Positions 813 to 13,975 are shown, counted from the stretch's first letter. The stretch: DNA of 64,000 bases from Callorhinchus milii (GCF_018977255.1 NW_024704742.1:84446001-84510000), one strand, 5' to 3'. Notes: generated from the sequence alone by a model not told the origin. Program-made: numbers and translations.

Positions 813-2685
813 TTAGGGTTTGCAGAAGGTATTCATATCATGTCTGCTACACCCAACTTTGCAACATTTATTGATAATTCCATAAGTGTTTGCCCTTCTT
901 TCTGCGGTCTGGTACACTGTAGCTCCAAACGGCTGTATTGGTGCATTGTATTTCCCATTCTCAAGCCTCCACTCAAACGCCTTCATGTTATCTGTTTCCT
1001 CGGAGTATTCTTTGTCAGCTGATGGCAAGAAGGGATCTGGAAGAGAAATAATAATACTTTGATATAGAGTTTTATCATGCTGTTGAGATGTCTCACAGCC
1101 TTTCACAGGATAAACTGTAAAGTGAATTGACTGTATTTTGTGGACAAATCACGGCAGCCAATTGCTCACAGTAATATCCCACAAACAGTCAACGATTGAG
1201 TGACTACATTTTTTTTTGAGGGATTATTACCCCCAGAAAGCAATCCCCCAATCGACTAACTTACTGCTAGATAAACAGAAACGTGTGGAGTAAGGAATTT
1301 GTTTAAGGTTTTGCTCTACTCAGAGCCTACTTTCAGTGAGCACTGCAGACGATCCAGACAGGCACTTTGAACATCGTATTCAGAGATCCTAACAGGTCAG
1401 AACGACAGCAATTGGCCAGAGTCGAGTTAATAGATACAACACTCAACTGGTAAGAAGACCAGGGGAAGCCTGGCTGAAGGAATGGAGACAGAAACTGCTT
1501 AAAGCACCAGGCACTGGATCAGCCCTTTAATTCTATCCTTATTTTAAAGTGGAGACAGTACAGTAAATGGGAACCAGTTTATCTACTCTTACACCTGGCT
1601 CAGGGAACTACCTTTATTCACTGTTTGTCTGCTCCTCTTACAATTTTCTTCTTAGATTTTTCTATTCTATTCACAGTTTGAATATATACTATCTGGTCTG
1701 AAGTTATAAACACTGCTCTGTTATCTGTTTGGCATTGTTAAAAATCAATTACATTTCACTTGATACACCTACTGCCATCAACCTGAATGTCAAATGAGCT
1801 AACGAGATAACTTCTGAGACAGAATAGAGCTGGTAAAAGAGCTTCAGCCCGAGACTCACAAAACACTTTAGGAATGAATCTTTCACAAGCGATTTGCTAG
1901 CATATTTCAGAATTGTCAACCCTTTTCTTCTTCTCAGATCACAAATGAATAGTCTCAGTGCCTCTGACTTAGAGTTCCCCTGACAGCTATTTCAACGTTT
2001 TGTCCATGCACTGAGCTGCCACTACTTTGGAAATATTACTGGTAATCATAAAACTCACTGATCAATAATAATACATTCCTCAGATGTTTATAGTGTCAAC
2101 CTGAAACTGTGACATTGTTTAACTAAATCATAAATAATCACGTGCTGATCTATCTTAAATTCTCATTTGACTGACAACTGTTTTTCGGCACTAATTAATA
2201 ATACAGTAAACCTCACATAAGTGGTATCAGTTGGATTTAATATGAGTTTAATTTAATATGAGTTATGCAGTGTATGAGTTATGTCAAACTTGCATAGAAT
2301 ATAAACTATTGAACAAAACTTGGGCAGATGTATGACTTAGGCAATTATACTATTTACATAGATCAGACTTAGGCGAGCTTTACTGTAATAATAATAATCT
2401 TACATTTGATACAGAGGCTTTAGTCTCAAAATGCTTCACTGGATTTATTACAAAGTGGAGTGACTGAATGTTTAGTGGGCAAATTAACAGATATGGTTAA
2501 GAATACTCACTGTTTTCCCTGATATCTGACCTCCTGAACCACTGTTGGTCCATACAATAAAAGAAAATCATTTTTTTCAGTTTGTTGCCGCAATATTTTT
2601 GCTTCCCAGAGAGCACAGAGCCAGGAAAGGTGGAGAGCAGGAGCCCAAACAGCTCAACACACACCAGACACTTCATCCCAGCCAT
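813..2685 (-). CDS. Relaxin/insulin-like prepropeptide, copy 1 (2 exons, 132 aa)
   Basis: Exon 1 is 2685-2511 (donor A|gtgagt) and exon 2 is 1036-813 (acceptor ttccag|, stop TAA), joined by a phase-1 intron in the C-peptide as in insulin/relaxin genes. Signal peptide MKCLVCVELFGLLLSTFPGSVLS; B-chain CGNKLKKMIFFYC-MDQQW-FRR (C-x11-C); A-chain after RR: ANTYGIINKCCKVGCSRHDMNTFC (CC-x3-C-x8-C). TATAAAA upstream and AATAAA at 564-559. Confidence 0.92.
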
Positions 2686-2725
2686 TTATGCTGTCTCTAC
2701 GCTCCTCTGCTCCCTCTCTCCTCTC

Positions 2726-2732
2726 TTTTATA
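2726..2732 (-). promoter_or_regulatory. TATA box of relaxin-like copy 1
   Basis: TATAAAA about 40 nt upstream of the ATG, followed by gagaggagagagggagcag; nearly the same context precedes copy 4 (11984-12009). Confidence 0.6.
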
Positions 2733-4180
2733 GATTTCTTGCTCCCTTACATTAAACTCAACATTTTCTATGACTTTTCCCGCCCCTTCATCTGATGCCA
2801 CAATTCGTGACATTAAATGTGAACAAATGTTCCTAATTCTGTCCATATGAGGTGGGTAGCTGGGGCGAGAGAAGGCTCATCCTCCCCGCAATCTCCCTAC
2901 AGCTCTCCTCTTCACGGGGAGTTGGGATGGAAAGCCCTGAGGAGCACCACAGCCAGTCCTCCAAGCAACCCCAACCCATAGGCCTCCCTTTTGGCCCTCT
3001 CCCAACTTGTTGTCATGGCTGCCCACTTCCAGTCCAGCGGCTGCCCGTCAGGCCGTCCTCACCTCTGCCTATCTGACTCAGGGATGGCGGAGCCAGTGGA
3101 GCCAAACGAGAATGGCAGTTAGACCTGTCAGTCAAGCCCACAGCTCATCTGTTTTAAAGGGGACCACTAAGCGTTCCAAGACGCCGTCCGGGGTGAAGGG
3201 CGCTATATAAATGCATGTTGTTGTTGTTGTTGTTGTTGACCTTTAAGTGAGTTTTACTCAGCCTCTCCCCCCCACCCCCCAGAATATTTTTACCCACTGC
3301 CTATAGTTATGCCCCAACCCAATTTCGCCGTCAGTCTCATTACAGCCTCAAATCAGCATTAGTTGCGCCACATTGAGGAAGTCATAGACTTCCTCGGGTT
3401 CATAATCGGGCAGGATCCACTCAGCTTCCTCCGCCTCTACCACCCATTCCCCTCCCGCATCAGGCTCTGTGTGTTTAGCACTGCCATTCTCACTGGCTCC
3501 ACTGGCTCCACCATCCCTCAGCAGTTCAAAATCAAGATCCTCGTCCTCACATTCAAATCTCTCCGCAGCCTTGTTCACGCCCCACCCCAATACTTCTGGG
3601 ACCTACCACAACCTATTCAAGGCTGCATTATAATAATAGTATTAAGTATTCAGTTTGATGTTGCACCTTATCATTCGTTGAGAGGTCTGATTAAATTTAT
3701 AAAGCTTCAGATCAGTAAATGATGTCTAAGCTGTAAGATGAGCTTGATGTTCTATTTAAAAATTAAAGAACAGTTAAAGGAAGTTAGTAATTCACTCATC
3801 TCAAGACCCAAATAAAGTAATTGTATAACTAGACCTTTATACTGACTGTCACACGATAATACTTAAACCCTGCATCAGGAATATAGAAAGGAACCTTTTA
3901 CTCCCTTTTCCCCACTCCTCCACCATTTCTCATTGGTTTATGGTAGCACCTCTGTAACGCATTTCAAAATATGACCCCGTGTGACCCCTGACAATTGCTC
4001 TCAGGTATGTGATTTACAAGGATTCGTGAACACGTACTTATATATCAGAGCTGAAAAAGGACAGATACAATTTGAGCATCGAGTGTTGTGTGGTCTGAGT
4101 AGGATCATCGCCAGACGGAGTAAGAGCACCACACTGGTAAATGCGGTTGAGTCTTCGTGACTGATTACTTGTCAGACAAT

Positions 4181-11990: not shown

Positions 11991-12148
11991 GAGAGGCGAG
12001 AGGGAGCAGGTAAATTGGAGGAGGAGAGAGATAAACATATAATCATCTCTTGGAATCCACTCATCTGTGAGGTGAAGAGAGCAAGCACCATCGGACAGAG
12101 TGAGAGAAACACACACAAGTCTCTGAGACTGATCACTTTTGAGCTGAG

Positions 12149-13440
12149 ATGAAGGGTCTGGTGTGTGTCCTGGTGATTGTACTGTTACTCTCTTCTTTTC
12201 CTGGCTCTGTGCTGTCTCAGCACGATGAAGAGCTAATTCATCTGTGTGGCGTGGATTTCATCAGCGCAATCATCAGAGTCTGTAGAGAGGTCAGAATGTC
12301 ATCAGCTAACCAGGAACACAGTGAGTATCAGAAATCAAATTCACTAGTTAATGCTGAGAAACTTTGTGATCATTTAAAATCCAGAAGGACGTCTCAAAGC
12401 GTTTCACAGGGTATTCTGTAAAGTGTAGTGACTGTGTGTATTTTGTAGATAAACACAGCAGCCAATTTGTACACAGCAATGTCCGACAAACAGCCATAAA
12501 GTGAATGACCAGTTTTATTCGGGGGGATTGTTGGTCAGGACACTGGGAGAGACTCCCTGGTTTCCTTCGAGTTGTGCCATTAGATCTCTAATCACTACCT
12601 GAACGGACAGTTGGGACCTTGGTTAACATCTCATCTGAAAGTCAGTTCCCACAGCACTGCTCAGGAGTGTCAACCTAGATCATGTCTGCGACATGCCAAC
12701 TGGGACCACTTTGGGTCTGGAAAGGACCACAGCTAATGCCAACAGCCTCTTGAATGTCACTTTCTTCCACAAATCATGTTCCACTGGAATGAGAGTCCCA
12801 CATCTTGTGGGAGTCCAAACTCATAGTGACTCATGCTGGCTGATCTGCTGAATGGTCCCAGTTTTTATTTCAGAATGAGTCCGTTTGCCTGAGTCGGTAG
12901 CACGATCGAGTTTGAGTCAAAAGCTTGGGGCTTCAAGCCCTACTTTGGCACTTTGAACCTATATTGTTTAAGCTGACACTTCAATAAAGCTCTGAGAGTT
13001 TGATGCTTTGTTGGAGGTCTCATTCTTCGGATGAGATGTTAAATAAAGGCCCTGTCTGCCTGTTCAGGTGGATGTTAAACATAATAATAATAATCCTTGC
13101 ATTTGATACAGCGCTTATCATGTTCGTGCATCCAGCACCTGGAATCCACTTTGATTGCCTTGTAGAGAGACATTTCATGCTGGGATGTGTTGCCTGCAGG
13201 GAGATTCTGAAAATCAAGCTGATGTGCATTTAATTAGTTAATATCAATGGGATTGTTAATTTTGTTTCAGATTCCTCCCCGACCTCAGCTGACAAACACC
13301 ATTCAGAGGAGACGGACAAGAGGAAGAGGAGTGCGGAAATACTTGAGAATGTGAAACAGTACATATCAAGAGATAGTCCATTCCCAAATTGTTGTACGGC
13401 AGGCTGCACCAAAAAAGATCTCAGAAACTTTTGTTTGTGA
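12149..13440 (+). CDS. Relaxin/insulin-like prepropeptide, copy 4 (2 exons, 113 aa)
   Basis: Exon 1 is 12149-12320 (A|gtgagt) and exon 2 is 13271-13440 (tttcag|, TGA). B-chain HLCGVDFISAIIRVC aligns with relaxin-3 LCGREFIRAVIFTC; KRKR processing site; A-chain CCTAGCTKKDLRNFC. Confidence 0.92.
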
Positions 13441-13569
13441 TATCTGTAAGACTTGTGATATCTGTAAGATGTTAGTTAATTATTATGAGATATGCATTTA
13501 AGAATCTTACCAAGTGAAATACTGTAGCACCGTACATCATTTACATCTTGCAAAACCCGCCACTAGAAC

Positions 13570-13975
13570 CTACACTGGAGCAACATTTGCTTCAACATTT
13601 GCAGGTTGTACCAAAAGCTAACTCAGAGAATATTGTTCGTACAACAAAAACAGAAGTCACTGAGAACACTCAGCAGGTCAGACAGCATCTATGGAAAAAG
13701 GAAAGTGAGTCAACGATTCGGGTCCACGACCCTTCGTCAGAACCCAGTATTGTTCGTATGTTTGAGACACAGGTTCGAGTGACTAACATTGTGGACTAAA
13801 TTGTGAGATACGGCACATATTTAAACACAAATTTAAAAACCCATGTATGTGGAATATCACTTTAACATAATTTACTGTAATTTCCAGTTTGATCAAACCC
13901 TGTAGTCATCACCCTGAAGATCTAAGAATGAGAATAAAATGTTTGCAACTGTGCACGTTTCAGTCTGTTCATTTC
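13570..13975 (+). pseudogene. Remnant of a copy-2-like exon 2 plus 3'UTR (relaxin-like copy 5 fragment)
   Basis: catttgcttcaac...ggttgtaccaaaagctaactcagagaatattgttcgta and the downstream UTR align with 5370-5640. The CC codons are deleted and the exon is interrupted by an insertion. Confidence 0.85.
13642..13747. mobile_element. Short Penelope-like repeat fragment flanked by an 11-bp duplication
   Basis: acaaaaacagaag...actcagcaggtcagacagcatctatgga...gacccttcgtcagaac, same family as 31933-32064. TATTGTTCGTA occurs at 13631-13641 and 13748-13758. Family assignment is from recall. Confidence 0.6.

What the first reader, a model, noticed from the sequence alone, without database searches (positions are those of the whole stretch)
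813..13975. Tandem expansion of divergent relaxin/insulin-like peptide genes: a possible undescribed hormone-like family
Seen: within 13 kb there are three intact genes, one pseudogene and one exon remnant. The four gene-length copies share a signal peptide, a B-chain C-x11/12-C, a phase-1 intron position and an A-chain CC-x3-C-x8-C. Established: this is relaxin/insulin gene architecture, and the mammalian RLN/INSL4/INSL6 tandem cluster lies on the same chromosome arm (human 9p) as TYRP1-LURAP1L. Inference: this is an independent birth-and-death expansion of the relaxin (RLN) locus in a cartilaginous fish, paralleling the mammalian one. More copies may lie left of the window.
Basis: partly seen in the sequence, partly recalled or inferred. 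Interest (0 to 1): 0.9.

Follow-up and report, generated by a model that had tools for sequence, protein, structure and literature searches.

The report
Extra relaxin-like gene cluster in chimaera
A cartilaginous fish genome carries a small tandem array of fast-diverging relaxin-like hormone genes, besides the four standard relaxin-family genes, that has lost the usual receptor-binding motif and seems to be unannotated.

Summary
Window 813-13801 holds three intact two-exon relaxin/insulin-like genes (g1 813-2685 minus; g2 4181-5461; g4 12149-13440), one pseudogene (g3 6431-8326), an A-chain exon remnant (13583-13642) and possibly a signal-peptide remnant (9032-9121). A fourth intact copy (g0) lies 1.9-4.1 kb left of the window.

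The genome matches Callorhinchus milii (99% to a UniRef protein). It has all four canonical relaxin-family genes elsewhere, each 20-220 kb from a JAK paralog. The true RLN sits in a PLGRKT-RLN-JAK block 6.5 Mb away, so the array is extra.

The array lies between RIC1 and TYRP1. It shares RLN's signal peptide, start-codon context, C-peptide start, intron phase and position. A relaxin HMM scores the spliced proteins 26-46 bits (shuffles at most 5.9).

All copies lack the RxxxRxxI cassette. The B chains are more diverged (43% nucleotide identity) than neighbouring non-coding DNA (70-80%). No annotated homologue and no paper describing the array were found.

Expression evidence is thin: one run has a contig that stops exactly at g1's predicted acceptor. 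The timing of the duplications and the function are open. The array parallels the mammalian INSL4/INSL6/RLN1 duplicates, so I call it a new member of a known kind, of moderate interest.

The parts
813..1036 (-). g1 exon 2: C-peptide and A chain (CC-x3-C-x8-C at 822-866); stop codon 813-815
   Evidence: Pfam Insulin E 4e-4, 21.7 bits. The best PDB match is the human relaxin-2 A chain, E 0.011. A 189-nt contig of run X1 lies on 882-1036 with 0 mismatches and stops exactly at 1036, with 34 nt left over.
2511..2685 (-). g1 exon 1: signal peptide and B chain (C-x11-C); donor ACA|GTGAGT, phase 1
   Evidence: By ESM Atlas features it is nearest to chordate Insulin clusters (0.90, 207/256). A 221-nt X1 contig lies on 2622-2842.
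2707..2797 (-). g1 promoter block with TATA box, shared with g0 and g4
   Evidence: (27 nt, 96% identical to 11983-12009).
4181..4349 (+). g2 exon 1: signal peptide and B chain with unusual C-x12-C spacing; donor ATG|GTGAAT, phase 1
   Evidence: The region upstream does not align with the shared promoter block.
5247..5461 (+). g2 exon 2: C-peptide and A chain (5405-5449)
   Evidence: Pfam Insulin E 0.016.
6431..6575 (+). g3 pseudogene, exon-1-like part: signal peptide and C-x11-C, donor GT mutated to CT
   Evidence: TATA box deleted upstream.
8154..8326 (+). g3 pseudogene, exon-2-like part: acceptor kept, stop in codon 5, two frame changes, stop before the A chain (8273-8317), Gly of CCxxGC lost
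9032..9121 (-). Possible exon-1 (signal-peptide) remnant, followed by a repeat element; weak
   Evidence: tblastn 48% over 31 aa, E 0.059; blastn 79% over 42 nt; translation.
11921..12009 (+). g4 promoter block with TATA box
   Evidence: g0-g4: 70% over 378 nt of promoter plus exon 1.
12149..12320 (+). g4 exon 1: signal peptide and B chain (C-x11-C); donor ACA|GTGAGT, phase 1
   Evidence: 57% identical over 49 aa to exon 1 of the canonical RLN at C1:77925653.
13271..13440 (+). g4 exon 2: short C-peptide with a KRKR site, and A chain (13390-13434)
   Evidence: PDB best matches are the relaxin-2 A chain (E 0.048) and the INSL3 A chain (E 0.069).
13583..13801 (+). A-chain exon remnant derived from a g2-like copy (coding part 13583-13642; Cys-Cys deleted, one stop) plus 3' flank similarity
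   Evidence: blastn 85-87% to 5390-5497; tblastn 82% over 22 aa; translation.
40245..47352 (+). TYRP1, right-hand neighbour (context, not part of the array)
   Evidence: Pfam Tyrosinase on 3 of 6 exon ORFs. Exon 1 against human TYRP1 structures gives E 1.3e-92.

Best explanation
This is a tandem array of relaxin (RLN)-derived paralogs in a holocephalan genome. It lies between RIC1 and TYRP1 and is additional to the four canonical relaxin-family genes.

The array has four intact genes: g0 just left of the window, and g1, g2 and g4 inside it. It also has one pseudogene (g3) and one or two exon remnants.

Each intact gene keeps the RLN layout. Exon 1 encodes the signal peptide and B chain. A phase-1 intron follows. 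Exon 2 encodes the C-peptide and A chain, and all six framework cysteines are present.

Inferred mechanism: the genes are translated as secreted prepro-peptides. These fold on the insulin disulfide scaffold and are cut at basic sites into two-chain peptides. The cut sites are clearest in g1 (RR after the B chain and RR before the A chain). Weaker ones are KRR in g0 and RxxR/KRKR in g4.

All copies have lost the B-chain RxxxRxxI cassette and the Gly after the second B-chain Cys. The mature chains have diverged faster than neighbouring non-coding DNA. I therefore read them as neo-functionalised, orphan relaxin-like ligands that do not use the canonical RXFP1/2 contact.

By analogy with chondrichthyan relaxins and mammalian INSL4/INSL6, they probably act in reproductive tissue.

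Shown here: gene structures, copy number, RLN affinity of the non-mature parts, absence of the motif, and position in the genome. Inferred: secretion, processing, fold, receptor and tissue.
For: - Structures and chance.
- All four canonical genes lie elsewhere and keep RxxxRxxI. The JAK Phl domain lies 20-220 kb from each. PLGRKT-type DUF2368 lies 3-5 kb from the RLN gene.
- That RLN gene is 99% identical to UniRef 'Relaxin 3' of Callorhinchus milii. Its closest relatives are 176-195 aa 'relaxin-3-like' proteins of sharks, lungfish, amphibians and birds.
- RLN affinity of the array: signal-peptide amino-acid identity averages 63% over 10 pairs. The ATG context and TATA block are shared. The C-peptide start motif is shared with shark RLN.
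- A relaxin HMM built from 18 rows without the array scores g4 46.4, g1 36.3, g2 29.4 and g0 25.7 bits. The best of 2000 shuffles scores 5.9 and the genome's own insulin 9.8.
- Tree with all columns: array 82/80; array plus chondrichthyan RLN 96/98.
- Selection for an open frame: synonymous sites are near saturation (pS 0.43-0.80), yet 4 frames of 113-132 codons are open. Under 27% random substitution only 1.4-4.3% of simulated copies keep an open frame. g3 shows what decay looks like.
- Fast mature chains: pooled nucleotide identity is 73% for the signal peptide, 43% for the B chain and 53% for the A chain. Collinear promoter and intron blocks are 70-80% identical. For g0-g1, B chain against intron gives Fisher p 6e-8.
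- Transcription hint for g1.
- No further copies elsewhere in the genome.
Against: - No RNA run is on record for this stretch. The runs laid are only guessed to be RNA. Just two low-depth contigs (2.6 and 3.3) of one run lie on g1, and one of them reaches about 100 nt upstream of the TATA box.
- The leftover 34 nt of the junction contig could not be read. A SINE copy ends about 10 nt from that junction.
- Pfam Insulin stays under its cut-off on single exons (best 21.7 against 23).
- Without the signal-peptide columns the tree no longer recovers the array or its link to RLN. The AU test does not reject them either (p 0.11 and 0.25).
- Pairwise pN/pS is below 1 in every region (0.48-0.73), so positive selection is not formally shown. 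The non-coding blocks used as a yardstick are the alignable ones only, and may themselves be conserved.
- g2 has odd features: C-x12-C spacing, no Gly after the first B-chain Cys, an extra Cys at the end of the signal peptide, and an unaligned promoter.
- g0 has two extra Cys in its C-peptide.
- The fold was not tested.
Confidence: 0.7

Rival explanations
1. The array is not a chimaera-specific expansion. It is an old chondrichthyan-wide (or older) relaxin-like subfamily that also exists, unannotated, between RIC1 and TYRP1 in sharks and rays. The motif-less relaxin-like molecule purified from male Atlantic stingray would be one of its products.
For: - Synonymous sites are saturated in a genome said to evolve slowly (the slow rate is recalled).
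- The g4 and g1 signal peptides and C-peptide starts are at least as close to shark RLN as to the species' own RLN. The highest identities are 42% and 37%, both to the Hemiscyllium row.
- The species' own RLN has a 4-residue gap in the C-peptide start where the array and shark RLN do not.
- The branching order within the chondrichthyan clade is unresolved.
- A stingray relaxin-like molecule lacking RxxxRxxI is reported in PMC551602 (passages read).
Against: A profile of the four exon-2 peptides found no shark or ray protein among 1.84 billion representatives. The one hit at E<=0.001 (E 2e-4) was unrelated. Shark RLN proteins are present in the other protein collection. This is weak evidence, because such genes may be unannotated and 40%-identical 70-aa matches are borderline at that library size.
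Confidence: 0.35
2. The intact-looking copies are non-functional duplicates on their way to decay, like g3. Their open frames are luck.
For: - One pseudogene and one or two remnants lie in the same array.
- The receptor-binding motif is lost in all copies.
- g2 and g0 have irregular features.
- No annotated protein was found.
Against: - Four open frames persist despite near-saturated synonymous change. The simulated chance of keeping each is 1.4-4.3% at 27% substitution, with indels ignored.
- All six framework Cys are kept in 4 of 4 copies.
- GT-AG sites are kept in 4 of 4 copies, and the TATA block in 3 of 4.
- Dibasic sites are kept in g1.
- g3 has lost its donor, its TATA box, the A-chain Gly and its frame.
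- There is a junction-ending contig on g1.
Confidence: 0.12
3. The copies are the species' INSL3, INSL5 or RLN3 orthologues, merely divergent.
For: The PDB best hits of single exons include the INSL3 A chain (g0, E 0.025) and the INSL5 B chain (g4, E 0.17).
Against: - RLN3-type (C29), INSL3-type (C21) and INSL5-like (C5) genes with intact RxxxRxxI are found elsewhere, each next to a JAK paralog.
- The C21 gene fits a published description of this species' Insl3 (PMC11122137, passages).
- The signal peptides of those genes are unlike the array's.
Confidence: 0.03

Closest known systems
Canonical chondrichthyan relaxin (RLN): the gene at C1:77.93 Mb of this genome (UniRef V9LCU5 'Relaxin 3', Callorhinchus milii) and shark 'relaxin-3-like' proteins of 176 aa
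   Same: Two coding exons and a phase-1 intron at the homologous place. The signal peptide is shared (54-76% identical). The ATG context and C-peptide start motif are shared, as are the six-Cys framework and the A-chain CCxxGC(T/S) pattern.
   Different: The array genes are shorter (113-132 against 172-176 aa). They lack RxxxRxxI and the Gly-Gly-Ser-Arg-Trp end of the B chain. They lie 6.5 Mb from the PLGRKT-RLN-JAK block. Their mature chains are only 20-58% (B) and 29-47% (A) identical to RLN and to each other.
Mammalian local duplicates of the RLN locus: INSL6, INSL4, RLN1
   Same: They are RLN-derived local duplicates with a conserved Cys scaffold and fast-changing B domains. INSL4 and INSL6 have no known receptor. 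Positive selection and reproductive expression are reported (PMC551602 abstract and passages; PMC3310001 passages). The neighbours belong to the same human chromosome arm (TYRP1 tested; RIC1 and 9p positions recalled).
   Different: The origin looks independent: the array groups with chondrichthyan RLN and apart from the tetrapod RLN-type rows, though no mammalian sequence was in that tree. The array is separated from RLN by 6.5 Mb.
Glycosylated relaxin-like molecule of the male Atlantic stingray (Bullesbach, Schwabe and Lacy 1997; known to me only through PMC551602)
   Same: It is a chondrichthyan relaxin-like two-chain peptide whose B chain lacks the relaxin motif.
   Different: Only g4 has an N-x-S sequon, and that depends on the acceptor chosen. 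The name 'raylaxin' is recalled and occurs in 0 papers of the library.

Membership tests
Insulin/IGF/relaxin superfamily (Pfam PF00049) | Six-cysteine framework: B chain C-x11-C, A chain CC-x3-C-x8-C | tested here: met
   g0, g1 and g4 meet it exactly. g2 has C-x12-C in the B chain. g3 keeps the pattern but is broken.
Insulin/IGF/relaxin superfamily (Pfam PF00049) | Score over Pfam's gathering cut-off (23 bits) | tested here: inconclusive
   Only single exons could be scanned. Exon 2 scores were 21.7, 16.6 and 16.4 bits, and exon 1 gave no hit. The six-frame scan of the genome gave g1 exon 2 20.6 bits. Spliced proteins were not accepted by the tool.
Insulin/IGF/relaxin superfamily (Pfam PF00049) | Two coding exons split by a phase-1 intron in the C-peptide; N-terminal signal peptide | tested here: met
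   The same phase holds in the genome's RLN, RLN3-type, INSL3-type, INSL5-like and insulin genes. The signal peptide was judged by homology to the RLN signal, not by a predictor.
Insulin/IGF/relaxin superfamily (Pfam PF00049) | Insulin fold with three disulfides | not tested
   The two-chain prediction job was never accepted because the queue was full (17 hand-ins). Spliced proteins cannot be handed to the folding tool.
Relaxin in the functional sense (criterion of PMC551602) | B-chain motif RxxxRxxI/V | tested here: not met
   0 of 5 array copies have it. 4 of 4 canonical paralogs of the same genome have it.
RLN lineage (evolutionary descent from the RLN gene) | Groups with RLN orthologues in a tree | tested here: inconclusive
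   With all columns: 96/98 for array plus chondrichthyan RLN, and 82/80 for the array alone. Without the signal-peptide columns neither is recovered. The AU test gives p 0.25 and 0.11, so neither is rejected. With insulin as outgroup, g1 is pulled to the root.
RLN lineage (evolutionary descent from the RLN gene) | Shared non-mature parts (signal peptide, ATG context, C-peptide start) and relaxin-family HMM score | tested here: met
   HMM scores are 25.7-46.4 bits against at most 5.9 for 2000 shuffles. Without signal peptides they are 16.1-28.7 bits.
RLN lineage (evolutionary descent from the RLN gene) | Position in the conserved PLGRKT-RLN-JAK2 block | tested here: not met
   That block is at C1:77.92-77.96 Mb. 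The array is at C1:84.442-84.460 Mb, between RIC1 and TYRP1.
RLN3, INSL3 or INSL5 orthologues | One-to-one correspondence with the JAK-linked paralog | tested here: not met
   Those genes are at C29:3.25 Mb, C21:7.75 Mb and C5:3.53 Mb, with JAK domains at C29:3.17, C21:7.77 and C5:3.75 Mb.
Stingray motif-less relaxin-like molecule | Sequence similarity to the purified peptide | not testable with these tools
   No tool held the sequence. Only the statement in PMC551602 was read.

The most novel reading that the evidence does not exclude
The array is the genomic face of an old, unrecognised chondrichthyan subfamily of RLN-derived peptides. The subfamily would include the motif-less stingray relaxin-like molecule. 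It keeps a conserved signal and pro-region and the Cys scaffold, while its mature chains, above all the B chain, are driven apart by diversifying selection. The peptides would act as reproductive or secretory ligands through a receptor contact other than the RxxxRxxI-RXFP1/2 mode. On this reading RLN duplicates have taken the same route at least twice in vertebrates, once in chondrichthyans and once in mammals.
Probability: 0.3. Interest if true: 0.7.

Novelty: new member of a known kind. Interest (0 to 1): 0.5.

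Why it matters
The usual picture gives non-mammalian vertebrates four relaxin-family genes from the two genome duplications, plus teleost extras. Local expansion of the RLN gene is described for mammals (PMC3310001, PMC551602). A second, independent set of RLN-derived, motif-less, fast-diverging peptides in a chimaera would show that this route is repeatable.

It would also give four new orphan ligands to test on the RXFP receptors of an early-branching jawed vertebrate. 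And it would offer a genomic candidate family for the old biochemical report of a relaxin-like molecule without the relaxin motif in a stingray.

On the practical side, these genes appear to be missing from the protein collections searched, so gene-family surveys based on annotation would overlook them.

Tried and rejected
After that only exon-wise references went to tools, and spliced models were computed by coordinates inside scripts.
- A search with the g4 exon-2 peptide among longer proteins scored none of 10 candidates.
- A profile of the four exon-2 peptides against 1.84 billion representatives gave 1 hit at E<=0.001. It is a 264-aa protein with four insulin-like repeats and is unrelated.
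- Searching the own genome with an alignment is not accepted, so single proteins were used instead.
- Weak own-genome hits showed no relaxin motifs, or were not examined further. These were C1:102.8 Mb, C14:13.07 Mb, C2:75.36 Mb, C4:45.14 and 7.14 Mb, and C7:17.24 Mb.
- No RNA holder is listed for 4100-14000. In the four runs laid, the bins holding the g2 exons have depths of 0 to 6.3. The g4 bins are confounded by repeats. Neither counts for or against expression.
- The two-chain complex prediction (g1 B-chain part with A-chain part, given as alignments A4 and A5) was never queued. There were 17 hand-ins, all answered 'queue full'.
- In the tree rooted on insulin, g1 was pulled to the root by long branches.
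- Pairwise Nei-Gojobori estimates are saturated, so no formal dN/dS test was possible.
- LURAP1L got only Pfam E 0.12.
- Earlier-findings look-ups by place, words and sequence gave nothing.
- No paper describing this array turned up in six paper searches. The term sets were: relaxin, elephant shark, INSL5, RLN3; relaxin, Callorhinchus; relaxin, cartilaginous fish, INSL3, tandem duplication; elephant shark, relaxin; relaxin, shark, skate, B chain, Squalus; raylaxin. PMC3178057 matched only on the word 'relaxing'.
- Subscription papers are not in the library. One example is a 2014 review on relaxin receptors and ligands from jawless fish to mammals, which I only recall. Supplements were not read.

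Full report
**What is in the sequence.** The window is vertebrate DNA. A six-frame scan finds the insulin-type A-chain pattern CC-x3-C-x8-C four times in the first 14 kb, at 822-866(-), 5405-5449(+), 8273-8317(+) and 13390-13434(+). It finds four exons that start with a hydrophobic signal peptide and carry C-x11-C or C-x12-C, at 2554-2685(-), 4181-4315(+), 6431-6532(+) and 12149-12283(+). Chance gives a mean of 0.04 A-chain patterns per 14 kb, with a maximum of 1 in 500 Markov resamples.

**Gene models.** Pairing the exons through GT-AG sites gives three open genes.
- g1: exon 1 at 2685-2511, exon 2 at 1036-813, minus strand, 132 aa.
- g2: 4181-4349 and 5247-5461, 127 aa.
- g4: 12149-12320 and 13271-13440, 113 aa.

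All introns are phase 1 and lie at the same place in the C-peptide. An alternative in-frame acceptor 6 codons downstream exists in g1 and g4. It does not change the reading.

**Pseudogene and remnants.**
- g3 (6431-6575 and 8154-8326) is a pseudogene. Its donor reads CT instead of GT. Exon 2 has a stop in its fifth codon and changes frame twice, with another stop just before the A chain. The A-chain Gly is lost and the TATA box is deleted.
- Downstream of g4, 13583-13642 is an A-chain exon remnant. It is 82% identical in protein to the g2 A chain, but the Cys-Cys pair is deleted and there is one stop. DNA similarity to g2 (85-87%) runs to 13801.
- A weak signal-peptide remnant may lie at 9032-9121(-).

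**A fourth intact copy left of the window.** The window is C1:84446001-84510000 of a 991.5-Mb assembly that is held. In the 10 kb to the left there is one more intact copy, g0. It is on the minus strand, 116 aa, at about window -4122 to -1882 (locus L024 5878-8118). The next 30 kb to the left hold no further copy by motif scan.

Genome-wide searches with five of the eight exon peptides (both g0 and g4 exons are not all included: the queries were g0 exon 2, g1 exon 2, g2 exon 2 and g4 exons 1 and 2) found no copy outside this 19-kb stretch.

**Family.**
- Single exons score weakly for Pfam Insulin. The best is 21.7 bits against a cut-off of 23, and exon 1 gives no hit.
- Their best PDB matches are the relaxin-2, INSL3 and INSL5 chains, E 0.011-0.23.
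- Spliced proteins could not be handed to the library tools. I therefore built a relaxin-family HMM in the script box from 18 rows that exclude the array: 15 named proteins and 3 canonical genes of this genome.
- That HMM scores the spliced models 46.4 (g4), 36.3 (g1), 29.4 (g2) and 25.7 (g0) bits. The best of 2000 shuffles scores 5.9 and the genome's own insulin 9.8. Without signal peptides the scores are 28.7, 27.5, 20.2 and 16.1 bits.
- By ESM Atlas features, g1 exon 1 is nearest to chordate Insulin clusters (0.90, 207 of 256). This is a lead only.

**The canonical genes are all elsewhere.** g4 exon 1 hits C1:77925653 at 57% identity. That gene has a textbook B chain with RxxxRxxI, and its A-chain exon lies 3.7 kb downstream.

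Its exon 2 is 99% identical to UniRef V9LCU5, 'Relaxin 3' of Callorhinchus milii, 172 aa. So the genome is that species or a very close relative. This protein record also confirms the splice junction, which is homologous to my junctions in g0-g4. Its nearest named relatives are 176-195-aa 'relaxin-3-like' proteins of two sharks, a lungfish, two amphibians and a bird. True RLN3 and insl5 proteins score lower.

Searching the genome with its exon 1 finds three more canonical genes with intact RxxxRxxI.
- One is RLN3-type, on C29.
- One is on C21. It fits the published description of this species' Insl3 (PMC11122137, passages).
- One is INSL5-like, on C5.

The JAK pleckstrin-like domain (PF17887) occurs at C5:3.75, C29:3.17, C1:77.96 and C21:7.77 Mb. 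That is 20-220 kb from each of the four genes.

DUF2368 (PF10166) lies 3-5 kb from the C1 gene. I recall this as the PLGRKT family. PLGRKT-RLN-JAK2 is the human 9p24 order as I recall it, so the C1:77.93 Mb gene is the RLN orthologue and the array is extra.

**Where the array sits.** To the right is TYRP1, at 40245-47352 (Pfam Tyrosinase; human TYRP1 structures at E 1.3e-92). To the left are RIC1 exons, at C1:84407134-84420911 on the plus strand (99 ORFs scanned).

The local order is RIC1, g0, g1, g2, g3 (pseudogene), g4, the exon remnant, then TYRP1. The array is 6.5 Mb from RLN.

In human, RIC1 lies a few hundred kb from RLN1 on 9p24 and TYRP1 lies on 9p23. This is recalled, not tested. If right, the array is in the wider RLN neighbourhood but not in the RLN block. 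LURAP1L is not confirmed.

**Descent from RLN.** The array shares several features with RLN.
- The signal peptide is shared (mean 63% amino-acid identity over 10 pairs).
- The bases around the ATG are shared.
- The C-peptide start motif is closer to shark RLN than to the species' own RLN, which has a 4-residue gap there.
- The intron position is shared.
- g0, g1 and g4 also share a promoter block with a TATA box. g3 has lost it, and g2 does not align.

A tree of 22 rows and 155 columns gives the array 82/80, array plus chondrichthyan RLN 96/98, g2 plus g4 95/86, and the RLN3 clade with the C29 gene 95/96. No mammalian RLN, INSL4 or INSL6 sequence was in this tree; the tetrapod RLN-type rows are a lungfish, two amphibians and a bird.

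There are two controls against this.
- With insulin as outgroup, g1 drops to the root.
- With the signal-peptide columns removed, only g2 plus g4 survives (92/89) and branches reach 3.7-7.3 changes per column. The AU test does not reject the array clade (p 0.11) or its union with chondrichthyan RLN (p 0.25).

So the RLN origin rests on the non-mature parts and the HMM. The mature chains carry almost no phylogenetic signal. Whether the duplications came before or after the chimaera-shark split is open.

**How the copies have changed.**
- None of the five copies keeps RxxxRxxI. None keeps the Gly after the second B-chain Cys.
- Pooled nucleotide identity over 10 pairs is 73% for the signal peptide, 43% for the B chain, 64% for the C-peptide start and 53% for the A chain.
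- Collinear non-coding blocks are 70-80% identical. g0-g4 promoter plus exon 1 is 70% over 378 nt. The g0-g1 intron block is 73% over 227 nt.
- For g0-g1 the B chain differs more than the intron block (Fisher p 6e-8).
- This is the conserved-signal, hypervariable-mature-peptide pattern. It resembles what PMC551602 reports for INSL6, INSL4 and RLN1 (abstract and passages).

It is not a formal proof of positive selection. Pairwise pN/pS is 0.48-0.73, synonymous sites are saturated, and only alignable non-coding DNA was compared.

The open frames themselves argue for selection. At 27% random substitution only 1.4-4.3% of simulated copies stay open, even ignoring indels. All six framework Cys are kept in 4 of 4 copies.

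**Processing, as read from the models.**
- g1 has RR after the B chain, at the place of RLN's RR, and RR before the A chain.
- g0 has KRR after the B chain and two extra Cys in its C-peptide.
- g4 has an RxxR site and KRKR.
- g2 has KK sites, C-x12-C spacing and an extra Cys at the end of the signal peptide.

g1 is therefore the most orthodox copy.

**Expression.** No run on record as RNA holds the stretch. Five small-share runs are only guessed to be RNA. Four were laid.

In run X1 a 189-nt contig lies on 882-1036 without a mismatch. It stops exactly at the predicted g1 acceptor, with 34 nt unplaced. A 221-nt contig lies on 2622-2842, over the g1 start. These are the only two long unique pieces listed for X1.

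This fits a spliced g1 transcript but does not prove it. The leftover letters were not shown. A SINE copy ends about 10 nt away. The second contig reaches upstream of the TATA box.

**Is it known?** Neither protein collection returned any product of the array, although they hold the species' RLN and shark RLNs. Six paper searches found no description of it. Subscription literature and supplements were not seen.

The closest published item is a relaxin-like molecule of the male Atlantic stingray whose B chain lacks the motif (PMC551602). Its sequence could not be compared.

**Verdict.** It needs three corrections.
- The array is not at the RLN locus proper.
- Its age is unresolved.
- Its function and expression are still inferred.

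It is a new set of members of a known kind of gene family expansion.

Noticed in passing
Own genome C1105:1725-1892 and C98:95524-95676 (loci L009-L012): Single-exon IGF-like B and A domains joined by a short linker, inside long open frames of 687 and 409 aa. They lie on small unplaced contigs, and the opposite strand is Cys-rich low complexity.
   Followed up: no
window 7040-8000: About 1 kb of minisatellite, open in three frames on the plus strand (Pro/Thr/Ala/His-rich). It lies inside the intron of pseudogene g3.
   Followed up: no
window 56955-61088: About 4 kb of GT/CA-rich simple repeat with GC skew up to 0.93. Its right-hand part overlaps an ORF at 60321-60611 with a faint LURAP match (Pfam E 0.12).
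   Followed up: partly
window 29919-30308 (-); window 10300-11900; L026 1094-1399; L027 3611-4000 and 6086-6970: Fragments of reverse transcriptase and endonuclease (LINE-type) are present; the 10300-11900 stretch only looks LINE-like by eye and gave no Pfam hit. A SINE-like element is scattered many times through the window. One SINE copy ends about 10 nt upstream of g1 exon 2.
   Followed up: no
L026 2525-4911 and L027 1134-3196 (C1:84407134-84420911, + strand): RIC1 exons are the left-hand neighbour of the array (Pfam RIC1 E 9.5e-48). In human, RIC1 is recalled to lie close to the RLN1/RLN2 cluster on 9p24.
   Followed up: partly
protein P0027 (library hit, not in the window): A 264-aa protein with four tandem insulin-like B and A units. 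It was the only library hit of the exon-2 profile (E 2e-4). Its origin is unknown.
   Followed up: no
L020 about 1250-1480 (upstream of the canonical RLN gene, C1:77.925 Mb): A long CCA/ACC microsatellite lies directly upstream of the RLN start codon. In the array genes the TATA block lies at that place.
   Followed up: no
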